Origin: Parcubacteria group bacterium
GTDB lineage: Bacteria > Patescibacteriota > Minisyncoccia > UBA6257 > Colwellbacteraceae
Direction: 5' to 3'
Length of the DNA stretch: 64,000 nucleotides
Assembly (NCBI GenBank): GCA_041649615.1
Contig: JBAZMT010000004.1
Span: forward strand, 691 to 64,690
A program made the position numbers and the translations under genes. Shown here piece after piece: positions 19,701 to 57,970 of the stretch (the stretch's first letter is position 1; the number at the start of each line of letters is the position of its first letter). Under the pieces are notes generated by a model. It was not told the origin of the DNA. It made no database searches and worked only from the letters and a program-made list of their open reading frames with translations.

Positions 19701-19764
19701 GGAGTTAGAAGATTAAAAATTTCATATAAATTTGAATTTGGAAAAAAGGAAAGGAGTCACAAAG

Positions 19765-20457
19765 ATGGGTAAGAAGAGGATTTTTGCAACCATTCTCACT
19801 GTACTGCTCGTTGTCTTCCTCGCGGTTCTCGCGGGGGTATTCACTCGGATATGGTGGACAGGATTGCTCGTAGGAGCAATCCTAACTTGGCACTTTCTCA
19901 TAAGAGGATTGAAGCAGGTGGATCTGGATCCCCCAACCCACGAATGGGAGGCCACTTTCTGTGGGAAAAGGACCGGCTATTACCTCGGCGAAGGATGGCA
20001 CTGGCTGCCGATTTTCTGTGGAGCTAAGCCGGTTGGCGGTGAAAAGAAGAAGCGCAGTTCTGACTTCATGAAAGCGAAGAAGAAAATCGGCGGATTCTTT
20101 TTAATTACAATTGCCGTCAGCCTCATTGCGAGTCTTCTTTCTGTCCCCTATCTCCTTAGCGTTGAAGCGGAAAGAGAAGCCGCCAAACCGATCATTTACG
20201 TATCGGCGGGCGAAACGAAGAACATTCGTATTCCGTCCGGCGAGTGGTCTGGAGTAATTGTAATTAGGGGAGAGCATTTCATCGCCGATCCTGACGGGAA
20301 AGTGACATACAAATTCCCGAACGATCGACAAGTCAATGATGGTCCCGGATTATATGTGAAGATGGATACGTATTATCCATACGAGAACGAAACATTCATC
20401 TTCAACACCTTTAACCGTGACCAAACCGATGTGGTTCTGACCGTATCGGTAGACTAA
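19765..20457 (+). CDS. hypothetical membrane protein (about 3 TM)
   Basis: I prefer the start at 19765 (MGKKRIF) because AAGGAG lies 7 nt upstream; the ORF-track start is 19732. Hydrophobic helices at residues 8-28, 32-50 and 105-125. The C-terminal soluble domain is of unknown family. Confidence 0.65.
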   Translation: MGKKRIFATILTVLLVVFLAVLAGVFTRIWWTGLLVGAILTWHFLIRGLKQVDLDPPTHEWEATFCGKRTGYYLGEGWHWLPIFCGAKPVGGEKKKRSSDFMKAKKKIGGFFLITIAVSLIASLLSVPYLLSVEAEREAAKPIIYVSAGETKNIRIPSGEWSGVIVIRGEHFIADPDGKVTYKFPNDRQVNDGPGLYVKMDTYYPYENETFIFNTFNRDQTDVVLTVSVD

Positions 20458-20503: not shown

Positions 20504-20776
20504 CTATACGTTGCTTCCGATGAAGTTTGATATGAGGATAGGCAAGCTCTTTGATACGATCGCGAGTGCAATACCTATGGCCGCATAAATAAGCTTGTCT
20601 TTTGCGGATTTGAGCTTGTCCGCACTGCCTGCGGCCGTTAAATAGCTGAAAGCCGCCCAAAGAAGAAAGAATACCGAAAGTGCAATAAAAACGCCGAATA
20701 CAAAATTGCCTATATTGTTTATCAGCGATTTTATTTGTTCGGGATCAGTGATATTTACTCGATCGACGTCATCCAT
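20504..20776 (-). CDS. VirB2/TrbC-like two-TM pilin-like protein (paralogue 1 of 3)
   Basis: 90 aa. TM1 (FVFGVFIALSVFFLLWAAFSYL), then TAAGSADKLKSAKDK, then TM2 (LIYAAIGIALAIVS). Same architecture as the two neighbouring genes and the N-termini of the 48465 and 49429 genes. Confidence 0.6.
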   Translation of the reverse strand: MDDVDRVNITDPEQIKSLINNIGNFVFGVFIALSVFFLLWAAFSYLTAAGSADKLKSAKDKLIYAAIGIALAIVSKSLPILISNFIGSNV

Positions 20777-20865
20777 AGTTTATTTATTGATATGTGAAAT
20801 GAATAAACGACCTTTTTGTTTTCATTATTCTGATTGTAGCAAATTCATTCGCTATTTAACAAAAA

Positions 20866-21252
20866 TTATACCGTTAAAAGATTTCTAATAACGACTTCCA
20901 CCGCTTTGGATAAAACTATGGCGGCGACTCCGACCGAGGTCCAAAGAACGGTTTTTCTTGCTTGCTTCACCTTTTCGTCATTTCCTCCGGAGGTAAGGAA
21001 AAGAAATCCGGCCCATAAATACATAAGGGCGGCAACGGGGATGACGATCCAAAGCAGACCGTTAATGATTCCGTCAATAAGAGTGGCCGGATCGCCGGCG
21101 GGAAGATTCAAAGGGTTTACGATCGTAAACGAGGGCAATCCGCTTCCGGAGTCCGAGCCTTCCCCCGCTGCGAGCGCGATACCGTGTCTAGACACCTCCA
21201 GAAATATTTTTTGGAATATTGTTTGCATACTCATATATTTTAGAATAACCAC
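20866..21252 (-). CDS. VirB2/TrbC-like two-TM pilin-like protein (paralogue 2 of 3)
   Basis: 128 aa (the start may be internal at 21234). It has an N-terminal AAGEGS leader motif, then LLWIVIPVAALMYLWAGFLFLTSGGNDEKVKQARKTVLWTSVGVAAIVLS. Confidence 0.6.
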   Translation of the reverse strand: MVILKYMSMQTIFQKIFLEVSRHGIALAAGEGSDSGSGLPSFTIVNPLNLPAGDPATLIDGIINGLLWIVIPVAALMYLWAGFLFLTSGGNDEKVKQARKTVLWTSVGVAAIVLSKAVEVVIRNLLTV

Positions 21253-21668
21253 GGCATTAAGGAAGTCGCTTCGCTCGTTAGCCCCAGTGACCTAATGACT
21301 ATGCCGATGATAACTCCCGCGCCGAGGGCGATCGCGACACCGATAACGGCGGATTTAATAAATCCCTTCCCCATACCTACGCGTTTTTCATTGCCTCCGG
21401 ACGTAAAGAGAATAAAAGCTCCCACGACGATCATTAAACCGGCTATGGGCAAAACGACCGAATAAAGAAGACCGATAACGTTGCTTACGATTTGCAAGGC
21501 GTCGCACCAGCCGACGGTACTTGCGATATTCGTGGCGCTTTGAAAACGGGAAGGGGTAATGCCTTGTCTGATATCAAACGGCGAAATCGTACATCCGGTA
21601 GTGGCAGACGATCCCTCTCCGGCCGCGTGGATGATAAACGGGGCGATTATTTTTCCGATAATGTTCAT
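21240..21668 (-). CDS. VirB2/TrbC-like two-TM pilin-like protein (paralogue 3 of 3)
   Basis: 142 aa with HAAGEGS leader motif, then LLYSVVLPIAGLMIVVGAFILFTSGGNEKRVGMGKGFIKSAVIGVAIALGAGVIIGIV. Confidence 0.6.
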   Translation of the reverse strand: MNIIGKIIAPFIIHAAGEGSSATTGCTISPFDIRQGITPSRFQSATNIASTVGWCDALQIVSNVIGLLYSVVLPIAGLMIVVGAFILFTSGGNEKRVGMGKGFIKSAVIGVAIALGAGVIIGIVIRSLGLTSEATSLMPWLF

Positions 21669-38712: not shown

Positions 38713-40017
38713 TTACCAAGTGATAGGACCGGTCGCTTTCTCCACTTCTTCTAAGCTCGTAATGCCTGAAAGAGCTTTAATTATCCCGTCTTGCTGCATA
38801 TTGGTAAATCCTTTGTCAAAGGCAAGTTTTTCAATTTCCGCCTCGCTCGATTCTCTGTGTATGAGCAATTCAAGGTCTTTATCCATTTCCAATATCTCAA
38901 AGATACCGATTCGGCCCCTATATCCGTCTACGCAAGACGGGCAGCCCACGGGCTCATAAAGGGTGATATCCGTGGGTAAAGACACATTTTTAGAAAGCTT
39001 GTTCGTAAATTCTTTTATTTTGGCGTTATTCTCCTCGTTTAGTTCCGCTTTTTTACGGCATTTTTCGCATAATTTGCGGACTAGACGCTGGGCAATGAAT
39101 ACGTTTACGGCCGGTCCGATAATTTGCGGTTTAACTTCAAGATCCAAGAGACGAGGGACGGCTCCGGCGGCAGTATTGGTGTGAAGGGTAGAGAAGACAA
39201 CGTGCCCCGTAAGAGCCGCTTGCATGGCGATATCGGCCGTTTCGGGATCTCTTATTTCTCCGACTAGAATTACGTCCGGATCTTGACGGAGAATGGACTT
39301 AAGTCCGCTTCCGAAATTGTATCCGGCGGACGGGTCTACCTGCGTCTGTTGAATGCCTGTCAGGTGATATTCTATCGGGTCTTCTATCGTGATTATCTTG
39401 ATTTCCGGAGAATTAATATGGTTTACAAAGGCGTAAAGAGTAGTGGTTTTTCCTGAACCCGTGGGGCCGGTTACGAGAATCATGCCGTTTGGTCTCTTAA
39501 GGCCGCGTTCAACTTTTATAAGATCGTCCTCGCGCAGACCGATGTCTTTAACCTCCAAAATAACCGCTTCAGGGTCTAAAATCCTCAAAACGATGGTTGC
39601 ACCGTATTCCGAAGGATTAATGGAAACACGGACTTCAATATCTCTCTTATTTTCGCGGCTTCGGATGGTAAAACGTCCGTCTTGGGCAGATTCCTGAATA
39701 TTAATCTTTACTCCTCCCAAGAGCTTTATCCTGCTTAAAATAAATCCGTATTCTTCAGTTGAAAGATTTCCCGATTCCCGCAAAACGCCGTCCAGTCGGA
39801 CTCTTATCTTTACACTGTCCCGCGCAGGCTCAAAATGAATGTCTGAAGCGCTAAGACCGAGCGCGCCGCCCAGTATTTCCTCAAGTAAAACGCTTGTTGA
39901 CGCTTTTCCCGCCGACGAAGAGGAAAGTTTGTCCATAAGCTCTTTCGGAGAAGAGATGGCGAGCTTGCTTACAGAGACTTCATTTAGCTTTTCATTCGTA
40001 TCTTTCGCGTCGTCCAT
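38713..40017 (-). CDS. GspE/PilB-family secretion ATPase (type IV pilus / type II secretion assembly ATPase)
   Basis: 434 aa. Walker A GPTGSGKTT, Asp box, Walker B DPDVILVGEIRD, His box TLHTN and a C-terminal tetracysteine motif CEKC...CPSC. Confidence 0.88.
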   Translation of the reverse strand: MDDAKDTNEKLNEVSVSKLAISSPKELMDKLSSSSAGKASTSVLLEEILGGALGLSASDIHFEPARDSVKIRVRLDGVLRESGNLSTEEYGFILSRIKLLGGVKINIQESAQDGRFTIRSRENKRDIEVRVSINPSEYGATIVLRILDPEAVILEVKDIGLREDDLIKVERGLKRPNGMILVTGPTGSGKTTTLYAFVNHINSPEIKIITIEDPIEYHLTGIQQTQVDPSAGYNFGSGLKSILRQDPDVILVGEIRDPETADIAMQAALTGHVVFSTLHTNTAAGAVPRLLDLEVKPQIIGPAVNVFIAQRLVRKLCEKCRKKAELNEENNAKIKEFTNKLSKNVSLPTDITLYEPVGCPSCVDGYRGRIGIFEILEMDKDLELLIHRESSEAEIEKLAFDKGFTNMQQDGIIKALSGITSLEEVEKATGPITW

Positions 40018-46523: not shown

Positions 46524-46687
46524 AGATGTAATTTTATTTAAGCGTTACCGAAGCGTCAAAATACCGGAATGCGCCATTGAAAAAATTTTAAATTTGTAAT
46601 CAAGACGTTTATAAACAAAGTTTGTCCGGAAACGGAGCAAAGAGAGGATTATCTGATAAAAACCGGATTGGCTGAAATTCCAGCCAC

Positions 46688-46708
46688 TGTGGATAACTTG
46701 TGGATTAA
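46688..46708. promoter_or_regulatory. two adjacent DnaA boxes: TGTGGATAA (perfect, 46688-46696) and TGTGGATTA (46700-46708) in the dnaA-rpmH intergenic region; candidate oriC / dnaA autoregulation site
   Basis: Matches the TTATCCACA consensus (reverse complement) at 9/9 and 8/9 positions. Confidence 0.65.
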
Positions 46709-46789
46709 GGGTAATTTCTGTTGACAAAAAGACTCAAATGTACCGAAAAATCATTGACTAAACCTTGAAAATTACTTATTTTAAGCCTC

Positions 46790-46924
46790 ATGAAACCGAC
46801 TTATAACCCTAAAAAGAAGAAAAGAGCGAGAACGCACGGTTTTCTAAAGAGGCAGTCAACTAGGGGAGGGAAAAGAACGATCGCGAGAAGAAGAGCTAAA
46901 GGCAGAAAAAGACTCTCCGTCTAG
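46790..46924 (+). CDS. rpmH: 50S ribosomal protein L34
   Basis: 44 aa, [44 protein letters not shown]. This ORF is not in the supplied track (shorter than 60 aa). It matches the L34 consensus. Confidence 0.9.
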
Positions 46925-48464: not shown

Positions 48465-49412
48465 CTAAAGAGAAGAGGGATCAAATGAGGGAGGAAAAGT
48501 AACAGCTTCAAAGACAGTGTTTGTGAAATTAGCATTCGTAAAGTTAGCGCCTGCAAAAACAGCACCTTCAAAAACTAAGCTTTCGAAGCTAGCACCTGTA
48601 AGATTGGTATTTGTAAAGTAGGTCCCTTTAAAAGTATTTCTTCCAAATTTAGCGCCAGTAAAGTCAATACCTCTAAGATCGGTTCCTCTGAGCAATACAG
48701 CACACTCTTCAGGTATAGATGAAGAACCACTTCCTCCTCCATTTTCTGGTACTTGAGCAGCGGACGCAGAGATAATTCGCGGGAATATATCAAATATTGA
48801 TGAGATGATCATATCTCCACTAACACCCGTAAGAGTAGCAGTTGAGAGATCGACTCCTTTAAAAACAACACTTGTAAATTTAGTGTTTGATAAATTGGCG
48901 TTTGTAAAGTTAGCACCTGATAAGTCCGCTTCCGTAAAACTGGTATTTGTAAATTTAGTACCTGAGAAAATGGCCCCATCAAACTCGTAACCAGTTAAAT
49001 CAGCTCCAGCTAGACTAGTACACTGTGCTGGGGGAGGAGGAAGGTTTGGAAGAATAACGTCTGGAATGGTTCCGGGTCTATCGGTAGTAGGATTGAGATT
49101 TGTACCTTCAAGGCTAGTTTCTTGTACCTTTAATACATTCGGATTGATTACGTTCAATAAAATGGCTCCGAGGGCGATTATTCCTAATCCTTTTGCGGCC
49201 GCCCAAATCCACGCGCGAGCTTCTTTTTCTCTCGTATCATTCCCACCGGCAGTGGAGTGCATAATACCTGCGAAAATTATAGTGCCTAACGCAAGAATTG
49301 CTGCAAGGCCGAGACCGACGTTAAAAATATTTACGATACCACCGGGTATAAAGCTACTTATAGCGCCGACTATGCCCGTTGGTGCTTCTTCTGCTAACGC
49401 AAGAGGAATCAT
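48465..49412 (-). CDS. fusion protein: N-terminal VirB2/TrbC-like two-TM pilin module + Pro-rich linker + C-terminal pentapeptide-repeat (beta-helix) domain
   Basis: 315 aa. N-terminal 100 aa are nearly identical in pattern to the 49429 gene (shared AWIWAAAKGL). The C-terminal half is A(D/N)LxG pentapeptide repeats. Confidence 0.7.
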   Translation of the reverse strand: MIPLALAEEAPTGIVGAISSFIPGGIVNIFNVGLGLAAILALGTIIFAGIMHSTAGGNDTREKEARAWIWAAAKGLGIIALGAILLNVINPNVLKVQETSLEGTNLNPTTDRPGTIPDVILPNLPPPPAQCTSLAGADLTGYEFDGAIFSGTKFTNTSFTEADLSGANFTNANLSNTKFTSVVFKGVDLSTATLTGVSGDMIISSIFDIFPRIISASAAQVPENGGGSGSSSIPEECAVLLRGTDLRGIDFTGAKFGRNTFKGTYFTNTNLTGASFESLVFEGAVFAGANFTNANFTNTVFEAVTFPPSFDPSSL

Positions 49413-49428
49413 ATGCTTAATTATACTT

Positions 49429-50568
49429 TTACTTGTTGTTAATACACCAGGTCATTCTTCGGTACTTCATAAAGTGACCTATTTCCGAAGACCTGACGCC
49501 TCTTCCCGCCGGGTCATTGATATACACTCTGTTCTTACTCTCGTCTATACCTTTGACTACAATGTAATGTCCTCCCAATGTAAAAATCGGAGTGCGATCA
49601 CGGGGGGTATTTTTCAACAGTTCCACTTCTTCGGCGGTTGGCGCTTTCATAAGAGCGATTACAATTCCGCCGTTTCTTAAACAGCTAGCAAGACTTCTCT
49701 GGGTGTTTGATATACCGGCGGATTTAAGTCCGTATAGCTTAGGTATGCCGATCATAGCGGCCCAAGCGGTTCCGTGATTGCAGGGTCTCCATTTATTCGC
49801 GACAATCGCATTACCCACGGTTTCTACGGCTGTTGTAGGAGTCATATACCTGTTACCGGTGAAATAGAGCATTACCATGGCGAGAGACGTCGCTCCACAA
49901 CCAGAGCTACCATAAGTTCCCGAGCAATTCGCACCGTATTTTTTACCTCCCCACGGACTGCTACCTTGCTTCAAAAGAGGAACTTCGGAATATGCGGGAG
50001 CTCCCGTGACTAAAGGCGCGCCTCCACCCCCCAAACCTGCGGAAGATAACACTTGCCACTTTGAGGTATCAGTGGGGAGAACACCAGTATTTGCTTCAAG
50101 AGCTATGTAAGAAACATTTTTATAAGCGACTTCGTCTCCTGGTAGATATGCGGTGGAAGAAGAGTATGTTCCTCTCCAACGAGCACCGGAAGGAAAAGCG
50201 GTCGGCGGAATATACCCAACGACTGGTTGAACGTTTGTCTCGGGAACGGCAAGCTCTACGAATTCCAAGTCAACGTCTTCAATAGTCGTGGCTTTTGGGT
50301 TAACTACCGAAACTATTATGAATCCGAAAGCGATAACGGCGAGTCCTTTTGCGGCCGCCCAAATCCACGCGCGAGCTTCTTTTTGCCGAGATTCATTATC
50401 TCCGGCGGTGGAATACAAAATTCCCGCAAATATTATGGTGCCCAATGCCAAAATGGCACCTATACCCAAACCGATAAAGAAAATATTGGCAATGCCGCCC
50501 GGTAAAATATCGTTAATAACGGAAACAAGACCGGGATCTTCAGCCAATGCAACCTGAATAAAACTCAT
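49429..50568 (-). CDS. fusion protein: N-terminal VirB2/TrbC-like two-TM pilin module + C-terminal Peptidase_C39-like (YvpB/BtrH-type) cysteine peptidase domain
   Basis: 379 aa. N-terminal module as in the 48465 gene. The C-terminal domain has the catalytic Cys context SSGCGATSLAMVMLYF and His context GGHYIVVKG. Confidence 0.7.
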   Translation of the reverse strand: MSFIQVALAEDPGLVSVINDILPGGIANIFFIGLGIGAILALGTIIFAGILYSTAGDNESRQKEARAWIWAAAKGLAVIAFGFIIVSVVNPKATTIEDVDLEFVELAVPETNVQPVVGYIPPTAFPSGARWRGTYSSSTAYLPGDEVAYKNVSYIALEANTGVLPTDTSKWQVLSSAGLGGGGAPLVTGAPAYSEVPLLKQGSSPWGGKKYGANCSGTYGSSGCGATSLAMVMLYFTGNRYMTPTTAVETVGNAIVANKWRPCNHGTAWAAMIGIPKLYGLKSAGISNTQRSLASCLRNGGIVIALMKAPTAEEVELLKNTPRDRTPIFTLGGHYIVVKGIDESKNRVYINDPAGRGVRSSEIGHFMKYRRMTWCINNK

Positions 50569-50576
50569 GTACTGAA

Positions 50577-52949
50577 TTATAACACTCCTCCCGAATTTTC
50601 TTCAGTCCCAGAATCCGCTTCGGCAATAATTCTCTGCGATAAAAGTTCTTCCGGGTTTGTGGTTATGATCTGATTTTCAAAAGCGGACGGAACGATCTGG
50701 ATGGCAATGTGTTTCTGTCCGACAAGGATGAGTCCTTGTCCTATATCTACGTCCACAAGATAATTCTTTTCAACTTCGGTTAAGCTAAACGCTCGCGCCA
50801 CAACGTCAATCGTGGCCGGAGATTGCTTGAGCAGAAGCTGGAGCGAAGAGTTCGTAATAACGGGACGGCCGTAAGGAGAACTCAAGAAGTCTTCCACGTC
50901 TTGGGTAATGGTCGTAATGCCAAGATAATATTTTCTGGCTCTTCTTACGAGGTTAAACAAGAAAGAGGCCGAGTCGGGATATTTCATCAAGAGCCAGGCT
51001 TCGTCTACGACCATGATTCGGCGTTTGAGTTTTGAACGGACGATATTCCAGACGTGGTTCAAGACGATATACATGGCAATTGGTCTCAACTCTTCTTCCA
51101 AATCGCGGATGGAAAAAACAATGACTCTGCTTCGGATATTTATATTCGTGGGGCGGTTGGTAAAACCGGCATAGCTGCCCTTGGTAAAGCGGTAAAGTCT
51201 TTCCGCCAACTCTTTTCCTCCTTCCATGTTTCGGAGAATGTTTTCCAAATCTTCCAATAAAGGGGGGGTCGCTTTGCCAAAATCTCTTCCTGGAGAAATA
51301 TCGTGAGAGGCATACGTTTCGTTTATGGCGCGGTCTAGGATCCCTTCTTCGGCGGGCGTAACGATTCCCACCATAAGTTTTACGAGGCCGGTAAGGCTCG
51401 CGATGTGGGATTGAAGCACCTCGGATTCGTTTTCGCCTTCGGGAACGATGGGAATTTCAAAGGGATTAATACTATCTTTAGACGTGAGAGATATCTTAAA
51501 CGTTGTTCCGCCAACCGCGTCGGCGAGCGACTGATATTCGTTCTCCGGATCAAGAATGAGAACGTCCGTTCCAAGCATGATCGATCTCAACAATTCCAGT
51601 TTTGCCGCATAAGATTTACCGGAACCGGATTTGGCGAAGATAACGGAATTGTTATTTTCAAGATCAAAGCGGTCAAATATAACAAGCGTATTGTTGTGAA
51701 GATTTAATCCGTACATTATTCCTTCATCGGTCGTTAGATCGGGCGAAATGAAAGGAAAGAAAGCCGAAGCGGGACTGGAATTCATGGCGGAAGAAATATC
51801 CATTATGTTTCGGCCGAGAGGACAAACCGAACGCCAAAGCCTGACTTGCTCAAACATAGGGGTTTTCACCGTAACGAGCGATCGCTCCAAAGTAGAGGTA
51901 ATTCTGTATTCAAGTTTCTTTAATTCTTCCAGAGAATCGGTGTAAATTGAACAATAAAAACTCACGGAGAAAAGTTTTTCTCTGGTTTGCTGGAGAGTAT
52001 CGCGAAGATTTTCCGCGTCTGCAAGAGCGGTTTCAAGAGCGGGATCTCTTATTAATCCTTTTTCTTGCCGTTCTATCATAGAGGCGGAAATGGAGGCGAC
52101 TTTTCTCGTAAGGTTTTTAAGGGCGATGCTCGTGTCGACGGGGGAAATGTGAATGGATATATCCATTAATTCCGGAAGATTGATAATCGGTTCGAGCCAA
52201 CCGGAAGAAAGATAACGCGGGTAATTCAAAACAAATAAACTTTTGACGAATTTGTCGTTGATCTTCAGATAATCGGGTTTTATCTCAATAAGTTTGGAGG
52301 AAACCGGATCCCCTTCGGGGATGGGTTCTTTTTCCGTGGTTTTTGGGTTGTAAAAATTGGCGCAGAGTTCTCTCAGTTCCGCATCATTCAGGGTCACGGC
52401 GCGGAGCCCGATGTGGCGCAATCCTTGAAGAACTTGTTCCGTCCGGAAATTGAGTTTTTCCATATGCTGCATAAGCTCTTCAACGGACATATTGGCAATT
52501 CTTTCCTCTTCTTCCCGGTGTTTTTTGCCGATGCCCGGCAGGACGGTCGGTTCAAAAGGGACGGTAACGAAAAAGCTCTTTTCAACGACGGCGTTTTCGG
52601 AAATAAAATTTTCAATGAATTTGACGTATTCGGAGAGCTGATTTTTGATAAGAGGATTTTCCTCCGTTTCCATCCGACTCTTTATGTTCTCTATGTATTC
52701 TTTGATAGCCAGGCGGCGCGAGTGAACGCTTAACTGAATGGCAAAATCAAGGGAATTAAGGAGATTCTGGAAAGCGGTAATTATGGAGTTCTGTTCTTCC
52801 TCGGATTTTAAATCCATATTAATTCCGGCGACCATAATCACTTTTCTCATGCCTCCCCTTTTAAGAAAGACGGCATCGTTTCTGATTTCCCTTACGTCCG
52901 ACAAGCTTTCGGTTGAACCAAAGGAAGTTTTAGATGGAGATTTTGGCAT
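50577..52949 (-). CDS. VirB4/TrbE/CagE-family type IV secretion ATPase
   Basis: 790 aa. N-terminal VirB4-like domain (SEEE...ITAFQNLLNSL). Walker A FAKSGSGKSYAAK, Walker B RIMVVDEAWLL. Confidence 0.85.
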   Translation of the reverse strand: MPKSPSKTSFGSTESLSDVREIRNDAVFLKRGGMRKVIMVAGINMDLKSEEEQNSIITAFQNLLNSLDFAIQLSVHSRRLAIKEYIENIKSRMETEENPLIKNQLSEYVKFIENFISENAVVEKSFFVTVPFEPTVLPGIGKKHREEEERIANMSVEELMQHMEKLNFRTEQVLQGLRHIGLRAVTLNDAELRELCANFYNPKTTEKEPIPEGDPVSSKLIEIKPDYLKINDKFVKSLFVLNYPRYLSSGWLEPIINLPELMDISIHISPVDTSIALKNLTRKVASISASMIERQEKGLIRDPALETALADAENLRDTLQQTREKLFSVSFYCSIYTDSLEELKKLEYRITSTLERSLVTVKTPMFEQVRLWRSVCPLGRNIMDISSAMNSSPASAFFPFISPDLTTDEGIMYGLNLHNNTLVIFDRFDLENNNSVIFAKSGSGKSYAAKLELLRSIMLGTDVLILDPENEYQSLADAVGGTTFKISLTSKDSINPFEIPIVPEGENESEVLQSHIASLTGLVKLMVGIVTPAEEGILDRAINETYASHDISPGRDFGKATPPLLEDLENILRNMEGGKELAERLYRFTKGSYAGFTNRPTNINIRSRVIVFSIRDLEEELRPIAMYIVLNHVWNIVRSKLKRRIMVVDEAWLLMKYPDSASFLFNLVRRARKYYLGITTITQDVEDFLSSPYGRPVITNSSLQLLLKQSPATIDVVARAFSLTEVEKNYLVDVDIGQGLILVGQKHIAIQIVPSAFENQIITTNPEELLSQRIIAEADSGTEENSGGVL

Positions 52950-52957
52950 AATATGTG

Positions 52958-53644
52958 TTATCTGTAATCAACCCTTCTTGCAGCTATCGTTTCACCGGTC
53001 GGCTTTTCTATGAGTTCATATCCTTTTGGTAATCTGGCAGAAGTCTGCTGCAAAGTCTCTTCCCTAAAAGGAATGGGCAAGGAAGTGGTAGTCATCTTAT
53101 TGAATAAGTTCTGGAGCCGAGACTTCTTTTTTTCCGGAGCCAACTCGCCGATTGGCGGGGGAGCGGGTTCAACCAAGGGGCTTACAAATACAGCGGGAGA
53201 AGGAGGTTCCATTATAGGAGGAGAGACGGGCTCAACCGGGATCATAACCGGAGGAATTTCGGTTGGGGCTTCCGGCGAGACGGGCGGCATAGCGGGAAAA
53301 CTTCCAGCTGATGGGATAGTAGCGATAGGTACTTCAGGGGAAATTGTTTCTCGAACTCTTTCTCCAATAACTTTCAATTTTAGGGCGAGAGTCTTGGGCT
53401 CCCAGAGATAACTGAAAGCTGCCGATATAAAGATAGGCATGGGGCGGCCGTTAACTTTGACGAGAGCAATAATAAGAGAACTTCCGACAAGGATGGCGGA
53501 GACGATAAGCCAAAACCAGGTTGTGAGAACGGTGAATAAAAGGAAAGATATGACAATGGCCGCTCCGACATATACAAACTGAATAAGAGTAAAAGGACCG
53601 ACAAGCTTACTCTCCGTTTCAAACTGCGGAACCTGAAACTGCAT
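52958..53644 (-). CDS. VirB3/PrgI-like small membrane protein with a Pro-rich C-terminal tail
   Basis: 228 aa. Two-TM hairpin (LIQFVYVGAAIVISFLLFTV..FWLIVSAILVGSSLIIALV). It sits directly upstream of the VirB4 homologue, as in Gram-positive T4SS loci. Confidence 0.55.
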   Translation of the reverse strand: MQFQVPQFETESKLVGPFTLIQFVYVGAAIVISFLLFTVLTTWFWLIVSAILVGSSLIIALVKVNGRPMPIFISAAFSYLWEPKTLALKLKVIGERVRETISPEVPIATIPSAGSFPAMPPVSPEAPTEIPPVMIPVEPVSPPIMEPPSPAVFVSPLVEPAPPPIGELAPEKKKSRLQNLFNKMTTTSLPIPFREETLQQTSARLPKGYELIEKPTGETIAARRVDYR

Positions 53645-53674
53645 ATATTTGATTTTAAGTAAGCCGAGAGTGGC

Positions 53675-54370
53675 TTACAAGGGCAAGTCTTTTAAATTTA
53701 GAACGTTTTCGGGGTTAACTTTTTTCGCTTTTTCTTCCGGATTAAATTCAAGACTGGCAAATGACGTCTTTTGTTGCGTTTCCGGGCTTCCTGAATAAAA
53801 CATCGGTCGCAAGGGAATTTCTCCTTGAACATTGCTTGCGGATACTTGTTCGGGAAGTTTCTCTTCGTGAATGACAAAAGGAGTGGGAGTGGCGGGTTCA
53901 CCGAGATTAGGGACAACGGGATTCATTTCGATAGGAACAGCGGGTGAAGCTTGCGCCTCCGCTAAGGCTCCTGGTGAAGTAATATTTTCAGGCACTTCTT
54001 CAGAAGAAACGGTCAAAGCAGGGTTGAAAGGAGCAATATTCTCGTCTATTGGAGCGATAACTGAAATATCAATACCGGATTCGGCGAGAGGCGCTCTTAT
54101 TGGAGTAAGGGTGGCGTTCACAAGTCTACCGACAACGGCTTCGTTTTGTTTATCCTGCGGGAGAGAAGAAAGTAATTTATTTCTGAATTCTTCGGACGGG
54201 ATATTTTTGAGAATCAGGTCAAAAATAGTATTGATTAAGGGAGCAGAGCTTTGAATATTAAATTCCTCCTGAACGGATACGATTGAGTCAATAAAACCGT
54301 CCGAATCCATCCATTGCTGAATTGTAGGATTTAATTCTTTAAAATTCATTTTTTCATGAATGTTTACCAA
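53675..54370 (-). CDS. hypothetical soluble protein within the T4SS-like cluster
   Basis: 231 aa. No TM or signal peptide. Acidic with a Pro-rich C-terminal half. Confidence 0.5.
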   Translation of the reverse strand: MVNIHEKMNFKELNPTIQQWMDSDGFIDSIVSVQEEFNIQSSAPLINTIFDLILKNIPSEEFRNKLLSSLPQDKQNEAVVGRLVNATLTPIRAPLAESGIDISVIAPIDENIAPFNPALTVSSEEVPENITSPGALAEAQASPAVPIEMNPVVPNLGEPATPTPFVIHEEKLPEQVSASNVQGEIPLRPMFYSGSPETQQKTSFASLEFNPEEKAKKVNPENVLNLKDLPL

Positions 54371-56553
54371 TCACCTTTGCCTATGTGGTAATTGACTTTA
54401 GCGTCAACACGACGATACTCACGTGTTTCATCAGCCGTTAAATGTGTTCCACCAACACCAAGTGTTCTAAGGCTAAGAGCGGCAAGTGCATTATTAATAT
54501 CTGTTTTTTCAGTGGCTGATCCTTCTTCTTTTATTTTATTGATGTCAGTGACCGAGAGAAGAAGAGCACTATCGGTCTTAGGCGTTACTCCGGAAAGATC
54601 ATCTAAAATTCTCTCTCTAACTTTATCTGCGTGTGTATGAAGTAGTTTGTTAACTTTTGTTAAGTCAGAAGCGTTAAGGGCAGACGTACCACTTAAATGA
54701 TCTAGTTTTACTTGTTTCATTGCATCTAAAACATTATTAACCACTGCCTCCGTACCATTCTCCATTATTTTAGCAACATTCTTTAGTCCGAGTTTCATTA
54801 CCATTGCCGGATCTTTAGCTATTTCGGCTCCGATATGCTGTGCATATACCTTAAATGTTTCGGAGTCCATATTTTCTGCATCTTTGTCAGAGATACCAAG
54901 AACACCAGAGGATTCTCCAAGAAGGGTGCTTGATAAGACCGTTCCTTTAACGACTCCTTTTCTAATTTCTTCGTCAGTTTTGGTTTTAATTGTCGGTTTA
55001 ACACCTACCTGGCTTAACAATGATCTAGCTCCTTTGCCTACTCCGCTTTCTGCGGGATTAAACCTAAGTCCTCTTGAAAGTCCGCTAAAAGCCGCAGCTG
55101 CGCCTTTATTTCCTTTTGCTGCAGCTGTCTTAGAAGCCATTTCGGCCATCATTTGACCTCTTTTGGCTAGGTTCTGGGCTTTACCGACTAAGAATCCGAC
55201 TCCGCCGGAAACTCCGGCCATTACCAGATTTCCGGCAACACCGCTGAATTTAGCCGTGAGAAATAACCCCATGGCGCTTATGATGATGGTAGCAATAAGC
55301 TGACCGATTGTGACAAGCCAACCGGCTTGAGTGGTGGAAACTGCGCCGGCAGAGCTAAGGTATTGTGAAGTAAAGGCAAGGAACAGAACTATAACGGGGC
55401 CAAAAAACACCCACTTGAGGAATTCTTTCCACCATCTCTCCCAGGCTAATTTCTTTAGAGGAGGAAATACGAATCCGAGCCAAATGAGAGGTGAAAAGGT
55501 GAGGAGGAGCATAAGAATAACGAATCTGATGATAAGGAAAATAGCCATAGCAAAGAAAGTAAGGGCGGCAACTACACTAATGGCAATACTTGCGTAATAG
55601 AAAAGAACGTTAGAGAGCAAGAAATTAATAAGATTGATAAAAGGCTGAATAAACAAGAGAGCTACTGCTAAAAGAGGACTTGCGATGTTTCTGGCTGCTT
55701 CTGCAGCGGTTCCACCACCAGGTATTCCGGTAATCTGGTTCGAAGCACCACCTATCTGATTCTGTATTTCACCACTGTCAACAATAGTGTTTATATCCGG
55801 GGATGAACCACTAATCACATTGCTTTGCATGAATATATTGTGTAAATGCCAGACGGTAAAATAGGTACTCATAGCGCCTGGGCAGGGAGCGGAAGCGTTA
55901 AACATTCTTTCGGTTAATGTTGTTCCTAGGCCCACAATTCCACTTGTGGCAGGAATGGTTAAATTCACCAAAGCAACGGCAACTACAAGTTTAAGAAGGA
56001 GCTTATTAACGGAAAACTCTTCTCGGCGAAGAATGGTAGCGATACCTATAACGATAATAGCCAATATGAGTCCAAGGTTTGTAATCTGAAGGATAACTTT
56101 ACCTCCATAGGTTACTAAAGGATTATTAACATTGAGGGAAAAATTTAGCGCTAGAGCCGCATTAATTAGTCCTCCGGCTAAAAGATTGAAGGCGGAAGCG
56201 ACAAGCGCTCCAATCATCGTGGTTAAGAGAAAATTTCTTATAGCTTCTATGGCTTGATCAATGGGCTCAAATATTCCACCCGGAGCGAGACTTATGCCAA
56301 AAGTAGCGGCCTCAATGCCAAATTCAAAATTCTCAAGAAAGCTTACGATAAAATCAAGACCGATAATTCCACCAAGAACAGCACTATTTGCCTGCCAAAT
56401 AGGCGATTGAAAGAAATTTATAGCGTCTGAAAATTGGGTAGTAAATATATTAGCGCATTCAGTGTTTATTGCCGGATCATCCGCTTTAGCGGTCGGCACA
56501 ATAGCCCAAATAAACATCAGGAGCAAAACAACGCTTACAACTTTGCGGAACAT
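54364..56553 (-). CDS. VirB6/TrbL-like polytopic type IV secretion membrane protein
   Basis: 729 aa. Signal peptide (…VPTAKA), at least 8 TM helices in the central region and a hydrophilic C-terminal domain of about 250 aa. Confidence 0.6.
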   Translation of the reverse strand: MFRKVVSVVLLLMFIWAIVPTAKADDPAINTECANIFTTQFSDAINFFQSPIWQANSAVLGGIIGLDFIVSFLENFEFGIEAATFGISLAPGGIFEPIDQAIEAIRNFLLTTMIGALVASAFNLLAGGLINAALALNFSLNVNNPLVTYGGKVILQITNLGLILAIIVIGIATILRREEFSVNKLLLKLVVAVALVNLTIPATSGIVGLGTTLTERMFNASAPCPGAMSTYFTVWHLHNIFMQSNVISGSSPDINTIVDSGEIQNQIGGASNQITGIPGGGTAAEAARNIASPLLAVALLFIQPFINLINFLLSNVLFYYASIAISVVAALTFFAMAIFLIIRFVILMLLLTFSPLIWLGFVFPPLKKLAWERWWKEFLKWVFFGPVIVLFLAFTSQYLSSAGAVSTTQAGWLVTIGQLIATIIISAMGLFLTAKFSGVAGNLVMAGVSGGVGFLVGKAQNLAKRGQMMAEMASKTAAAKGNKGAAAAFSGLSRGLRFNPAESGVGKGARSLLSQVGVKPTIKTKTDEEIRKGVVKGTVLSSTLLGESSGVLGISDKDAENMDSETFKVYAQHIGAEIAKDPAMVMKLGLKNVAKIMENGTEAVVNNVLDAMKQVKLDHLSGTSALNASDLTKVNKLLHTHADKVRERILDDLSGVTPKTDSALLLSVTDINKIKEEGSATEKTDINNALAALSLRTLGVGGTHLTADETREYRRVDAKVNYHIGKGDW

Positions 56554-56581: not shown

Positions 56582-57334
56582 TTACAGTTTTTTAGAAATA
56601 CAAAAAATATCTCCGGATGAAAGATTCTGAGGACGAATACTTGAAGGTAAATTACAGGAATTAAAAATTTTTTCTGCTTCGGACTTTGGAATATTAAAGA
56701 AATCAGAGAAATTATTTATGGCCTTTTTTCGGGGATGGAGGAATAAGGCATGAACGACGGTAGAATACGCCTTTTCGGCCATATATTCGTTTCGATCAAG
56801 CGAGACAACAGCGGAGTCAACTTTAGGTTTGGGATAAAAATCATTTTTTGGGACGGTAAATAGGTAATTGGGGGTTGCCCATCCGCGAATTACGGAAGAT
56901 AAAAGGTTGGCTTTTCCAAGGGTCGCACAGATGCGCTCGGCTACTTCACGCTGAACAAGAAAAACGGTTTTAGCGGGAGGAATTGACAGTTCGGAGGTGA
57001 TTCTTAACAGTTGCCCCGTGATGTAGTAAGGGATATTTCCTATGAGTTTCCAATTCTTAGGCAGCTTAATTTCTGGCAATATTTTAAGAGCGTCACCCGC
57101 AATGACTTGAACATTGCGGAATTCTTGTCGTAAAAGACCGGCTAAATTCTCATCTTTTTCTATAGTAATGAGTTTTTGAGGGTTTTTGGCGACTAAAAAG
57201 CTAGTCAGCTCGCCATGACCCGGGCCGATTTCAACTACGGTATCACCTTCTTTGATATCTAGGGCGTCAGCGATTCTTTGCAAAGCGGTATCATTTTGCA
57301 AAAAGTTCTGTCCGAGTGATTTTTTCGGCTTCAT
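56582..57334 (-). CDS. rsmA: 16S rRNA (adenine1518/1519-N6)-dimethyltransferase RsmA/KsgA
   Basis: 250 aa. SLGQNFL, VVEIGPGHGELT and NIPYYIT motifs. Confidence 0.93.
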   Translation of the reverse strand: MKPKKSLGQNFLQNDTALQRIADALDIKEGDTVVEIGPGHGELTSFLVAKNPQKLITIEKDENLAGLLRQEFRNVQVIAGDALKILPEIKLPKNWKLIGNIPYYITGQLLRITSELSIPPAKTVFLVQREVAERICATLGKANLLSSVIRGWATPNYLFTVPKNDFYPKPKVDSAVVSLDRNEYMAEKAYSTVVHALFLHPRKKAINNFSDFFNIPKSEAEKIFNSCNLPSSIRPQNLSSGDIFCISKKL

Positions 57335-57403: not shown

Positions 57404-57970
57404 TTGCCAAAAATCGCATATTTTGCCATTTTAGGCGCTTTAACACTTATATCGGTGGCCGTGTTGCTGTTTATTCCGTCTCTCGGCGATTTAGTCTTGG
57501 GAGGCGAATCGGGGATTCAGGAGAATAAAATACAATTAGCAGGGATTATTTTTTCTTCGGAGAAACCGCTCGTATTAAATGAAGGTTCAATGCTTTTGGA
57601 CGCCCAGCCGATAGTGAATGAAGTAACTCAAGAAAATAAGCCAGATTTACTTGATGGAGAGAATACGCAATTTGCGGGAGAATATGGAGACGAAGACATA
57701 TTTTTCGCCGTTTGCGGAATGGAAATAAACGCCAGCTTTCCCGGTCTTATAACCGATACGGGCGAACCCGAAAAATGGAATGAAGGCAAGGGAGGGTACG
57801 TGACGATACAGAACGCTTATTCTCTTAGAAACGTCGTTTTTTCGCATTTCTCCGAAGTTAGCGTTACTCCGGGAGATTTCGTGGAATTGGGAGAATCTTT
57901 GGGAACGGCGGGTTCTTCCGGAAATGTTTTTTCCGGGAGAGCGTGCCAGGTGGGTATAGCTAACAAATAA
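57404..57970 (+). CDS. membrane-anchored peptidase M23 (LytM)-like domain protein, probably catalytically degenerate
   Basis: 188 aa. N-terminal TM. The C-terminal GGYVTIQNAYSLRNVVFSHFSEVSVTPGDFVELGESLGTAGSSG resembles the M23 beta-fold but lacks the HxxxD and HxH metal ligands. Confidence 0.5.
   Translation: MPKIAYFAILGALTLISVAVLLFIPSLGDLVLGGESGIQENKIQLAGIIFSSEKPLVLNEGSMLLDAQPIVNEVTQENKPDLLDGENTQFAGEYGDEDIFFAVCGMEINASFPGLITDTGEPEKWNEGKGGYVTIQNAYSLRNVVFSHFSEVSVTPGDFVELGESLGTAGSSGNVFSGRACQVGIANK

What the first reader, a model, noticed from the sequence alone, without database searches (positions are those of the whole stretch)
48465..56553. Compact type IV secretion-like gene cluster (VirB6-like, VirB3-like, VirB4-like) with no coupling protein or relaxase
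Eight kb of co-directional minus-strand genes directly downstream of ksgA, with only a 28 nt gap before the first gene. The genes are a 729 aa polytopic VirB6/TrbL-like protein, a soluble unknown protein, a two-TM VirB3/PrgI-like protein, a VirB4/TrbE ATPase with Walker A and B, and then two pilin-module fusion proteins. No VirD4, relaxase or oriT-like sequence is visible. This suggests a non-conjugative T4SS-like apparatus, possibly for cell-cell contact or DNA/protein transfer. Such reduced VirB4/VirB6 loci have been noted in small-genome episymbiotic bacteria, but the downstream pilin-cargo fusions here look unusual.
Basis: partly seen in the sequence, partly recalled or inferred. Interest (0 to 1): 0.8.

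Follow-up and report, generated by a model that had tools for sequence, protein, structure and literature searches.

The report
Patescibacterial T4SS with cargo-carrying pilins
This is the origin-proximal type IV secretion-like gene cluster already described for ultrasmall Patescibacteria (CPR) bacteria, here in a trimmed-down form in which the pilin-like subunits are fused to a cell-wall-type cysteine peptidase and to a pentapeptide-repeat domain, a feature I did not find discussed in the searchable literature.

Summary
Six tightly packed minus-strand genes (48465-56553) follow ksgA: a VirB6-like protein, a conserved accessory protein, PrgI/VirB3, a full-length VirB4 and two paralogous pilin-module fusions. 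VirB4 is solid (NCBIfam CD1110 family, 405 bits). PrgI is solid through its orthologues. VirB6 stays weak. No coupling protein or relaxase lies within about 74 kb.

The kind is already published. The Patescibacteria T4SS is described as MPF-FATA-derived, relaxase-less, next to dnaA/ksgA/rnpA, carrying VirB2-like pilins and essential in Southlakia (Wang 2023; Quiñonero-Coronel 2025). The same gene order recurs in most of 80 related genomes.

Three things are particular here:
- VirB4 is unsplit, whereas most relatives have a TrsD-like ORF plus VirB4.
- Three accessory families conserved in relatives are absent.
- Both operon pilins carry predicted extracytoplasmic cargo: a CBM5/12-like domain plus a C39-like papain-fold peptidase with an intact Cys-His-Asp triad, and two pentapeptide-repeat blocks.

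A profile search shows the module is often fused to peptidoglycan hydrolases (M23, SLT, amidase, CHAP, VanY). Close sister genomes swap the cargo. The pentapeptide version looks rare.

Verdict: a reduced variant of a known system. The function is inferred, not shown. Interest is moderate.

The parts
54364..56553 (-). VirB6/TrbL-like polytopic membrane protein (729 aa). It has an N-terminal hydrophobic leader, at least 7 hydrophobic segments between residues ~55 and ~437, and a C-terminal helical-repeat domain at ~530-729.
   Evidence: Pfam TrbL E=1.5e-4, 22 bits, below the 25.9 cut-off. Four of 30 orthologues hit TrbL, best 1.9e-7. The position after ksgA is conserved in 38 of 80 loci. The AF2 model has mean pLDDT 63, with only the C-terminal helical repeat confident, and gives no significant fold match. 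The VirB6 of Southlakia likewise carries an ARM-repeat domain.
53675..54349 (-). Conserved accessory protein (224 aa; 231 aa if the TTG at 54370 is used). It has a ~110 aa N-terminal helical domain, a Pro/Glu-rich disordered tail and a C-terminal NLKDLPL motif, with no TM segment.
   Evidence: No Pfam, NCBIfam, PADLOC or PDB-profile hit. An iterative profile search links it to the gene in the same virB6-virB3 slot in 40 ORFs of about 39 related loci (alignment A9).
52958..53644 (-). PrgI/VirB3-like membrane protein (228 aa) with a long Pro-rich C-terminal tail ending in RVDYR.
   Evidence: Pfam PrgI E=3e-4 and TcpE E=0.024 for the window protein. PrgI is hit in 28 of 29 orthologues, best 6.5e-11. 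It lies directly upstream of virB4 in 74 of 80 loci.
50577..52949 (-). Full-length VirB4 ATPase (790 aa) whose TrsD-like N-terminal domain and C-terminal P-loop domain sit in one ORF.
   Evidence: NCBIfam conju_CD1110 E=7e-121, above cut-off. TrsD model on residues 15-201, E=1.9e-6. PDB 4AG5 E=5e-42. Walker B. Most relatives carry two ORFs of ~220 and ~600 aa instead.
49429..50568 (-). Pilin-module fusion 1 (379 aa). It comprises a two-helix VirB2-like module (residues ~25-90), a linker, a CBM5/12-like beta domain (~130-176) and a papain-fold C39_2-like cysteine peptidase (~190-379).
48465..49412 (-). Pilin-module fusion 2 (315 aa). It comprises a paralogous two-helix module (60% identical to that of fusion 1) followed by two blocks of about 13 pentapeptide repeats, each preceded by a Cys.
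   Evidence: Pfam Pentapeptide E=1.6e-29. Module alignment. A 214-nt direct repeat at 71% identity links the two genes.
20504..21668 (-). Array of three free-standing VirB2-like pilin genes (20504-20776, 90 aa; 20866-21234, 122 aa; 21240-21668, 142 aa), 27 kb from the operon. These are probably the major pilins of the same system.
   Evidence: Precomputed PF18895 hits on all three. They match the fusion-protein module by phmmer, from 2e-5 to 0.05.
56582..57334 (-). ksgA/rsmA. It is the upstream gene of the same transcription direction and a conserved neighbour of the T4SS locus.
   Evidence: TIGR00755 E=6e-61. ksgA precedes the virB6-like gene in most related loci. The association is also reported in PMC12102498.

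Best explanation
The cluster is the chromosomal, replication-origin-proximal type IV secretion system typical of Patescibacteria (class Paceibacteria/Parcubacteria), in a lineage-specific reduced form.

Shown:
- It encodes a full-length VirB4 ATPase, a PrgI/VirB3-like protein, a probable VirB6-like channel protein with a helical-repeat extension, and a conserved disordered accessory protein.
- It encodes two VirB2-like pilin-module proteins, and three ordinary pilin genes lie elsewhere in the window.
- It sits between ksgA and jag-yidC-rnpA-rpmH-dnaA in a gene order shared by dozens of species.
- No coupling protein or relaxase is nearby.

Inferred:
- The system does not conjugate DNA. VirB4 powers assembly of pilin-module proteins, recruited at the VirB6/VirB3 platform, into a short pilus or contact conduit to the host cell, as proposed for Southlakia, where the homologous system is essential.
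- The pilin module inserts with its basic loop inside and both ends outside, so the C-terminal cargo is extracellular.
- The CBM-plus-cysteine-peptidase cargo supplies the wall-cutting (VirB1/CwlT-like) activity, acting on the symbiont's own wall or on the host's. In relatives the same module carries M23, SLT, amidase, CHAP or VanY domains.
- The pentapeptide-repeat cargo, a rigid beta-helix, is a variable surface, adhesin or spike element. Sister genomes replace it with Cys-rich domains.
For: - Component identities.
- Taxon and public annotation ('Parcubacteria group bacterium', WC565_024xx).
- Synteny ksgA-VirB6-x-VirB3-VirB4-...-pilin-jag-yidC-dnaA-dnaN-PBP1 in most of 80 genome loci, all from Patescibacteria MAGs.
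- Published description of this system as MPF-FATA-derived, near dnaA/ksgA/rnpA, with PF18895 pilins and rarely any relaxase: PMC12102498.
- Essentiality, lack of coupling protein and relaxase, and wall hydrolases directly downstream of virB4 in S. epibionticum: PMC10633639.
- Topology: K/R residues are concentrated in the inter-helix loop and acidic residues in the flanks. Three further Cys positions (263, 296, 375) are invariant in the cargo. Partner domains of the module all act on peptidoglycan outside the membrane: M23 in 21 proteins, SLT 5, Amidase_3 3, C39_2 3, CHAP 2, VanY 2, plus PG_binding domains, among 124 long relatives. Nearest relatives have the architecture module-linker-hydrolase.
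- Cargo swapping at a fixed position in genomes whose VirB4 is 81-83% identical.
- Peptidase fold and catalytic triad.
- T4SS pilin-domain proteins are among the most highly expressed genes of unknown function in host-attached Paceibacteria (PMC10936435). Tubular structures that may be T4SS pili are seen at a parasite-host interface (bioRxiv 10.64898/2026.06.21.733656).
Against: - No experiment exists for this organism, and the function of the Patescibacteria T4SS is called 'completely unknown' (PMC11665869).
- The VirB6 assignment is below Pfam's threshold and was not confirmed by structure.
- No PF18895 protein has been shown to polymerise. A 200-300 aa C-terminal domain would sterically hinder a homopolymer, so the fusions may never enter a pilus.
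- The peptidase fold is equally close to leader-peptide C39 proteases and to secreted proteases such as staphopain. Substrate is therefore not established.
- A coupling protein could be encoded elsewhere in the genome.
- No VirB8-like component was found.
Confidence: 0.72

Rival explanations
1. The pilin-module proteins are not pilus subunits. The two-helix module is simply a membrane anchor, evolutionarily derived from a pilin, that tethers wall hydrolases next to the T4SS. They would then act as the VirB1/CwlT/PrgK-equivalent autolysins that open the symbiont's own wall for machine assembly. The pentapeptide protein would be another membrane-anchored surface protein.
For: Gram-positive conjugative T4SS encode a membrane-anchored hydrolase next to virB4 (established knowledge of ICEBs1 CwlT and pCF10 PrgK). 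Southlakia has hydrolases directly downstream of virB4. Bulky cargo would hinder polymerisation. The genome has three separate short pilins that could form the filament. [quoted passage not shown]
Against: The module is conserved at 51-71% identity across paralogues and species, far more than a generic anchor needs. Many relatives carry 2-8 tandem modules in one protein, which suggests module-module interactions. Non-enzymatic Cys-rich, beta-helix and Ig-like cargo is also common.
Confidence: 0.35
2. The machine is an import device, like ComB of Helicobacter or Ced of archaea. It would take up DNA, RNA or other macromolecules from the host rather than export anything.
For: Import T4SSs lack a relaxase and coupling protein, as seen here. 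The idea is raised in PMC11665869 and PMC12857230. A cultivated relative feeds on host RNA and shows possible T4SS tubes. PNPase, ComM and RNase J are in the same window.
Against: There is no direct evidence. In Southlakia the T4SS is essential whereas competence (comEC) is not. Nothing in the locus binds nucleic acid. The weak CedB/CedD hits are generic P-loop similarity. This rival concerns the direction of transport and is compatible with the anatomy proposed above.
Confidence: 0.2
3. The locus is a working conjugation system, or a decayed integrative conjugative element, whose coupling protein and relaxase lie elsewhere or were lost.
For: VirB4 belongs to a conjugative family model (CD1110). 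VirD4-like genes are common elsewhere in Patescibacteria genomes. A tyrosine recombinase lies at 18092-18988.
Against: All genes are intact. The locus is embedded in housekeeping genes in the same order in dozens of species, so it is vertically inherited and not mobile. GC content is unremarkable. No oriT-like repeat is present. Relaxases occur in only 103 of 3,035 genomes surveyed. The recombinase is 30 kb away.
Confidence: 0.06
4. The C39-like domain is a pilin-maturation protease, analogous to TraF or leader peptidases. It would be co-localised with its substrates through its own pilin module and would cut the short N-terminal 'A-x-A-E/G' leaders of the pilins.
Against: Paralogous fusions carry M23, SLT, amidase, CHAP and VanY domains, which are wall hydrolases and not proteases of proteins. 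Relatives combine C39_2 with PG_binding_1. A CBM5/12-like glycan-binding domain precedes the peptidase. PeiR, the joint top structural match, cuts wall cross-links.
Confidence: 0.1

Closest known systems
T4SS of Candidatus Southlakia epibionticum ML1 (SEML1_0006-0019; Wang et al. 2023, PMC10633639)
   Same: It is a chromosomal locus beside dnaA/dnaN with VirB4, a PrgI family protein, a VirB6-like protein with an ARM/helical-repeat extension and PF18895 pilins. Wall hydrolases lie directly downstream of virB4. No recognisable relaxase or coupling protein is in the cluster.
   Different: Southlakia has six short unfused pilins in an array, large separate hydrolases (lysozyme-like plus Cys proteinase; DD-peptidase), an NTF2-like (VirB8-like) protein and a split VirB4 region. 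In the window the hydrolase is fused to a pilin module, VirB4 is one ORF, no VirB8-like gene was found, and a pentapeptide-repeat pilin fusion is present.
Typical Paceibacteria T4SS locus (Quiñonero-Coronel et al. 2025, PMC12102498; loci L009-L083 here)
   Same: It has the same order ksgA-VirB6-accessory-VirB3-VirB4...pilin...jag-yidC-dnaA-dnaN-PBP1, the same accessory family and the same pilin module.
   Different: Most relatives have a TrsD-like ORF of ~220 aa plus a VirB4 of ~600 aa, and three further conserved families downstream of virB4 (27, 47 and 49 members). Their pilin has a signal peptide and a Cys-rich tail. The window lacks those three families and has leaderless pilin modules with enzyme or repeat cargo.
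Gram-positive conjugative MPF-FATA systems (C. difficile CTn2/CD1110 family, ICEBs1, pCF10, Tn916)
   Same: It shares the VirB4 family (best NCBIfam model), PrgI/TcpE-type VirB3, a VirB6-like protein, a membrane-anchored wall hydrolase next to virB4, and the absence of outer-membrane core proteins.
   Different: Those systems have a coupling protein, relaxase, oriT, a VirB8-like protein and adhesins, lie on mobile elements and lack VirB2-type pilins. None of these conjugation features is present here.
Helicobacter pylori ComB DNA-uptake T4SS
   Same: It is a T4SS that works without a coupling protein or relaxase and includes VirB2-, VirB3-, VirB4- and VirB6-like parts (established knowledge; cited).
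   Different: ComB is a diderm MPF-T system with VirB7-10. No import function has been shown for Patescibacteria, and ComB has no pilin-cargo fusions.
Carrier-plus-variable-cargo architectures (evolved VgrG/PAAR of T6SS, CdiA-CT, minor type IV pilins with extra tip domains)
   Same: These have a conserved N-terminal assembly or carrier module with interchangeable C-terminal enzymatic or binding domains that differ between close relatives. This is a functional analogy, from my own knowledge.
   Different: There is no sequence or structural relation. Here the carrier is a T4SS VirB2-like two-helix module, no immunity genes are evident, and delivery has not been shown.

Membership tests
Patescibacteria-clade T4SS (MPF-FATA-derived) | VirB4 ATPase with MPF-FATA affinity that clusters with Patescibacteria VirB4s | tested here: met
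   The conju_CD1110 model scores 404.9 bits against a cut-off of 325. PDB 4AG5 matches at E=5e-42. The best 80 genome matches are all Patescibacteria-type MAGs at 41-62% identity. A formal phylogeny was not run.
Patescibacteria-clade T4SS (MPF-FATA-derived) | PrgI/VirB3 homologue next to virB4 | tested here: met
   The window protein scores PrgI E=3e-4, below GA. Twenty-eight of 29 orthologues hit PrgI, best 6.5e-11. The gene is 8 nt upstream of virB4.
Patescibacteria-clade T4SS (MPF-FATA-derived) | VirB6-like polytopic membrane protein | tested here: inconclusive
   TrbL scores 22 bits against a cut-off of 25.9. Four of 30 orthologues hit TrbL. Multiple TM segments are present. The AF2 model is of low confidence and gives no fold match, and the PDB profile search is negative.
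Patescibacteria-clade T4SS (MPF-FATA-derived) | VirB2-like PF18895 pilins associated with virB4 | tested here: met
   Two module-bearing genes lie directly downstream of virB4. PF18895 is hit in 41 of 48 and 116 of 124 relatives of the module. Three further PF18895 genes lie at 20.5-21.7 kb.
Patescibacteria-clade T4SS (MPF-FATA-derived) | No relaxase or coupling protein near virB4; chromosomal position near dnaA, rnpA and ksgA | tested here: met
   No such family appears among the annotated or scanned ORFs of the window plus 10 kb. ksgA is adjacent, and jag-yidC-rnpA-rpmH-dnaA-dnaN lie within 5 kb.
Patescibacteria-clade T4SS (MPF-FATA-derived) | Required for epibiotic growth | not testable with these tools
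   This is known only for S. epibionticum by Tn-seq.
Conjugative MPF-FATA T4SS / ICE | Type IV coupling protein (VirD4/TcpA family) | tested here: not met
   All ORFs of at least 400 aa in the window are assigned to other families or give no Pfam hit. The rest of the genome was not available.
Conjugative MPF-FATA T4SS / ICE | Relaxase and oriT | tested here: not met
   No relaxase family hit was found and no notable inverted repeat lies in or beside the locus.
Conjugative MPF-FATA T4SS / ICE | Mobile-element context (integrase, variable insertion site) | tested here: not met
   The locus has the same housekeeping neighbours in most of 80 species and GC content is not deviant.
VirB2/TrbC-type T4SS pilin | Two hydrophobic helices joined by a short basic loop | tested here: met
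   Helices span residues ~28-50 and ~69-90, and the loop holds 3 K/R. The AF2 model shows a helical hairpin at 25-89.
VirB2/TrbC-type T4SS pilin | Small protein (about 70-140 aa) with an N-terminal leader | tested here: not met
   The fusions are 379 and 315 aa. Only 7-9 residues precede an ALA-E motif, and the upstream frame is closed by a stop 11-13 codons before the ATG. The three genes at 20.5-21.7 kb do fit.
VirB2/TrbC-type T4SS pilin | Polymerises into a pilus | not testable with these tools
   No structure or experiment exists for any PF18895 protein in the sources searched.
Peptidase C39 (bacteriocin-processing domain of ABC exporters) | Papain-like fold with catalytic Cys and His | tested here: met
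Peptidase C39 (bacteriocin-processing domain of ABC exporters) | Cytoplasmic N-terminal domain of an ABC transporter | tested here: not met
   The domain is C-terminal to a pilin module and a CBM-like domain, is predicted to be extracytoplasmic, and has no ABC transporter domains. It is therefore filed only under the broader PF13529 C39_2-like group.
Pentapeptide repeat proteins | Tandem A(D/N)LXX-type pentapeptides forming a beta-helix | tested here: met
   PF00805 scores E=1.6e-29 over 4 stretches. Two blocks of about 13 in-register repeats are visible. The structure was not predicted.

The most novel reading that the evidence does not exclude
The VirB2-like module is a carrier domain. Patescibacteria would use their T4SS to assemble, or extract from the membrane, a set of pilin-module proteins whose interchangeable C-terminal cargo is displayed on or at the tip of a host-directed pilus. 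The cargo includes wall hydrolases, beta-helix repeats and Cys-rich binders. This would be a built-in, polymorphic toolkit for breaching and gripping the host envelope, and a delivery mode not described for any T4SS. The fold-level match of the peptidase to a pseudomurein endoisopeptidase would then hint that some lineages target archaeal walls.
Probability: 0.25. Interest if true: 0.8.

Novelty: new variant of a known kind. Interest (0 to 1): 0.5.

Why it matters
The Patescibacteria T4SS is essential in the one species tested, is nearly universal in a phylum that makes up a large share of bacterial diversity, and its role is openly described as unknown.

This locus adds no new machine. It does show, together with its relatives, that the system's pilin module is routinely fused to peptidoglycan-cutting enzymes and to rapidly exchanged surface domains. 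That has three consequences:
- It offers a concrete explanation for the reported lack of VirB1 homologues in most of these genomes.
- It points to the host or symbiont cell wall as a target of the apparatus.
- It supplies testable reagents: soluble cargo domains for activity assays, and tags for localisation by cryo-ET.

The compact form (five core genes plus two fusions) is also a candidate minimal version of the system for reconstitution.

Tried and rejected
- A word-indexed homologue search with the 100-aa module alone returned nothing. It was replaced by the exhaustive profile search.
- PDB sequence-profile searches with the VirB6-like, VirB3-like and accessory families gave only chance-level hits.
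- The AF2 model of the VirB6-like protein was of low confidence in the membrane part (pLDDT 63). Foldseek gave no match at E<=0.001, only generic helical-repeat proteins. The VirB6 fold could be neither confirmed nor refuted.
- A metagenome scan for relatives of the pilin-pentapeptide fusion found one unrelated pentapeptide protein. No C39 or pentapeptide cargo occurs in the 80 genome loci.
- PADLOC defence models gave no hits. The weak NCBIfam hit to the Hailong HalA effector is therefore generic pentapeptide similarity.
- Promoter and terminator scans were not above shuffled expectation.
- Repeat search found only the duplicated module and the pentapeptide periodicity, with no oriT-like structure.
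- Gene conversion between modules was rejected. Identities within and between genomes are similar, at 51-71%.
- The decayed-ICE reading was rejected on conserved housekeeping synteny.

Full report
1. What is in the sequence

ksgA (56582-57334; TIGR00755 E=6e-61) ends 28 nt before the 729-aa gene. The following gaps are 14, 30, 8, 8 and 16 nt. Consensus promoter and terminator matches inside the cluster are not above shuffled expectation. A single ksgA-linked operon is therefore the simplest reading.

Downstream, on the opposite strand, lie jag, yidC, rnpA and rpmH (46790-46924). They are followed by a 266-nt gap and then dnaA and dnaN. The operon thus ends about 1.7 kb from the probable replication origin.

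The same proteins occur on a 157-kb ENA contig and in an NCBI MAG named 'Parcubacteria group bacterium' (tags WC565_02430-02440). There VirB4 is annotated only as a 'DUF87 domain-containing protein' and its neighbours as hypothetical.

2. The components

VirB4 (790 aa) is secure. It scores 404.9 bits on NCBIfam conju_CD1110 (cut-off 325) and also matches Mbov_0397, TraC and the VirB4_CagE models. It hits Pfam P-loop_TraG, AAA_10 and DUF87. It matches PDB 4AG5, the VirB4 C-terminal domain, at E=5e-42. Walker B is IMVVDE at residue 645 and a Walker A-like AKSGSGKS is visible in the translation. Its first ~200 residues match the TrsD model.

The 228-aa protein is below Pfam's PrgI threshold on its own (E=3e-4). 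However, 28 of 29 orthologues from related loci hit PrgI, with a best E of 6.5e-11.

The 729-aa protein is polytopic and gives a sub-threshold TrbL match. Only 4 of 30 orthologues reach E<=0.01. Its AF2 model is poor in the membrane part and has no significant structural neighbour. 'VirB6-like' therefore rests on weak sequence signal, position and the published annotation of the Southlakia counterpart. That counterpart likewise has an ARM-repeat extension, which resembles the confident helical-repeat C-terminal domain of my model.

The 'soluble unknown protein' (224 aa from the ATG used by gene callers) has no hit in Pfam, NCBIfam, PADLOC or PDB profiles. An iterative profile search nevertheless joins it to the gene occupying the same virB6-virB3 slot in 40 ORFs of about 39 related loci. 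The family shares a ~110-aa helical N-domain, a long Pro-rich disordered region and short C-terminal motifs: NLKDLP in this lineage and DPYRE in others.

3. The two fusion proteins

Both proteins begin with a 60%-identical module of about 95 aa. The duplication is visible in DNA as a 214-nt direct repeat at 71% identity. The module consists of two hydrophobic helices joined by a loop that holds the positive charges, with acidic flanks.

The window copies match PF18895 (T4SS_pilin) and the Mycoplasma ICE pilin-like model only weakly. Relatives of the module hit PF18895 in 41 of 48 and 116 of 124 cases, and some also hit TrbC/VirB2. The module also matches three short PF18895 genes at 20504-21668 in the same window.

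Neither fusion has a normal signal peptide. Only 7-9 residues precede an ALA-E motif, and a stop closes the frame 11-13 codons upstream of the ATG.

Fusion 2 (315 aa) carries two blocks of about 13 pentapeptide repeats (PF00805 E=1.6e-29). Each block is preceded by a Cys.

4. Relatives and literature

A scan of one genome per species found 586 VirB4 relatives. The best 80 are all Patescibacteria-type MAGs, including Paceibacterota, Harrison-, Jorgensen-, Kaiser-, Yanofsky- and Nomurabacteria.

The order ksgA-VirB6-slot gene-VirB3-VirB4-...-pilin-...-jag-yidC-dnaA-dnaN-PBP1 recurs in most of them. This is the arrangement published by Quiñonero-Coronel et al. 2025 (PMC12102498). They describe a VirB4 clade nested in MPF-FATA, with PrgI, VirB6 and PF18895 pilins nearby. 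They find relaxases in only 103 of 3,035 genomes, coupling-protein genes rarely near virB4, and enrichment of dnaA, dnaN, rnpA, ksgA and rpmH next to virB4.

Wang et al. 2023 (PMC10633639) showed the homologous cluster to be essential for epibiotic growth of S. epibionticum. They noted the lack of a coupling protein and relaxase and the unusual presence of pilins. [quoted passage not shown] The kind of system is therefore already known.

5. What is particular here

(a) In about 70 of the 80 loci VirB4 is two ORFs of ~220 and ~600 aa, the 'TrsD' plus VirB4 of the literature. The window and a few close relatives have one ORF of ~790 aa.

(b) Relatives carry three further conserved families between virB4 and jag (27, 47 and 49 members). 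None of them has a homologue anywhere in the window, and Pfam says little about them. The window locus is thus a reduced form.

(c) The pilin genes in the operon carry cargo. In the wider set of loci, about 50 have a pilin-module ORF downstream of virB4 with a tail of 100-1,400 aa. The tails are mostly Cys-rich, with single cases of M23, NlpC/P60 and Ig-like repeats.

An exhaustive profile search with the module found 2,515 cluster representatives at E<=1e-3. Most of the best 150 are far longer than a pilin, and many hold 2-8 tandem modules. Among 124 long ones the partner domains are:
- Peptidase_M23 (21)
- SLT (5)
- Amidase_3 (3)
- C39_2 (3)
- CHAP (2)
- VanY (2)
- polysaccharide deacetylase, Amidase_2 and M74
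- PG_binding_1 and PG_binding_3
- beta-lactamase-fold and beta-helix domains

No pentapeptide domain appears among them. The ten nearest leaderless relatives are module-linker-M23 (5), module-linker-C39_2 (2), tandem modules (2) or unknown (1).

Two sister contigs whose VirB4 is 81-83% identical keep the whole locus but differ in cargo:
- pilin-C39 plus pilin-Cys-rich (420 aa) in one
- pilin-M23, pilin-C39 and a short pilin (136 aa) in the other
- pilin-C39 plus pilin-pentapeptide in the window

Module identities are 51-71% both within and between genomes, so this is an old paralogous family and not recent gene conversion.

I found no discussion of pilin-cargo fusions in the papers searched. 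The Southlakia pilins are short and unfused.

6. Most likely mechanism

Shown:
- the gene content;
- the conserved chromosomal context;
- the absence of conjugation-specific genes nearby;
- the intact catalytic triad;
- the association of the module with wall-hydrolase domains.

Inferred:
- Because the same module carries enzymes that can only act outside the membrane, and the basic residues sit in the loop, the module probably inserts loop-in with both ends out, as VirB2 and TraA do. This places the peptidase and the pentapeptide beta-helix outside the cell.
- VirB4, docked through VirB3 and VirB6, would extract or assemble pilin-module proteins into a short pilus or contact conduit. The three short pilins are the likely bulk subunits.
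- The CBM-plus-peptidase cargo would provide the wall-cutting function. In Gram-positive conjugation systems and in Southlakia that function is encoded by separate hydrolases next to virB4.
- Whether the cut wall is the symbiont's own or the host's cannot be decided.
- The variable last gene looks like a host-facing, fast-changing element.

Supporting context comes from two reports. T4SS pilin-domain proteins are among the most highly expressed unknown genes in host-attached Paceibacteria (PMC10936435). Possible T4SS tubes have been seen at a parasite-host interface. The direction of transport and the substrate remain unknown (PMC11665869).

7. Rivals

- The module may be only a membrane anchor for autolysins (0.35 for that sub-question).
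- The machine may import host macromolecules, as ComB does (0.2; compatible with the anatomy).
- The locus may be a conjugation system with parts elsewhere, or a decayed ICE (0.06). The conserved housekeeping synteny argues against this.
- The peptidase may mature pilins (0.1). The hydrolase partners of paralogous modules and the CBM domain argue against this.

8. Verdict

The system belongs to a known kind. The locus is a reduced variant, and its cargo-bearing pilins are a feature that is widespread in databases but, as far as I could find, undescribed. I rate interest as moderate (0.5). It is not a new machine, but it gives a concrete, testable lead on how an essential and unexplained machine might work.

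Noticed in passing
window 20504-21668 (minus); neighbours 18092-18988 (+), 19732-20457 (+), 21691-22899 (-): An array of three short PF18895 pilin genes (90, 122 and 142 aa) lies 27 kb from the T4SS operon. It sits between a 241-aa membrane protein of unknown function and a solute-binding protein, near a XerC/D-like tyrosine recombinase. Two of the pilins have an 'AAGEGS' motif after a short hydrophobic N-terminus.
   Followed up: partly
L009-L083 versus window 50577-52949: In most related genomes VirB4 is split into a ~220-aa TrsD-like ORF and a ~600-aa ATPase ORF. The window and a few close relatives (L005-L008, L011, L037, L084, L086, L088) have a single ORF of ~790 aa. Whether this is ancestral or a secondary fusion was not resolved.
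   Followed up: partly
related loci, e.g. L027:12422-15685, L039:12383-15281, L014:12434-15747: Three conserved protein families of unknown function (27, 47 and 49 members among 80 loci; one member has a cadherin-like domain) lie between virB4 and jag in typical Paceibacteria loci. They are absent from the whole window.
   Followed up: partly
window 49386-49412 and 50542-50568 (N-termini of the two fusions); sister sequences in A8, L086, L088: A conserved very short N-terminal segment ending in A-L/F-A-E/Q precedes the pilin module, with no basic n-region or full hydrophobic core. This may be a non-canonical leader or processing site, and it remains unexplained.
   Followed up: no
window 52958-53000 and 53675-53700 (C-termini); alignments A6, A9: The VirB3-like protein and the accessory protein both have long Pro-rich disordered tails ending in conserved short motifs: TGE..A.RVDYR, and NLKDLP or DPYRE respectively. 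These may be docking motifs for another component.
   Followed up: no
window 38713-40017 (minus): A T2SSE/PilB-type ATPase (type IV pilus assembly) is encoded 9 kb from the T4SS operon, next to RuvB.
   Followed up: no
window 57404-57970 (+): A membrane-anchored Peptidase_M23 protein is transcribed divergently from ksgA. An M23 gene occupies the same position in several related loci (L009, L018, L033, L061), so it may be a further wall hydrolase linked to the locus.
   Followed up: partly
window 3330-4017 (minus): A Fic-domain protein (3330-3779) and a small HTH_17 protein (3766-4017) form an overlapping pair that looks like a toxin-antitoxin or regulatory module.
   Followed up: no
window 46524-46789: The 266-nt gap between the divergent dnaA and rpmH is the likely oriC. 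rpmH (46790-46924) is not among the called genes on the ENA contig, but it is intact.
   Followed up: partly
P0022, P0023, P0026, P0051, P0056, P0059: Some database proteins contain 3-8 tandem copies of the pilin module in one polypeptide, sometimes ending in an SLT domain (P0022). These are 'poly-pilins' of unknown significance.
   Followed up: partly
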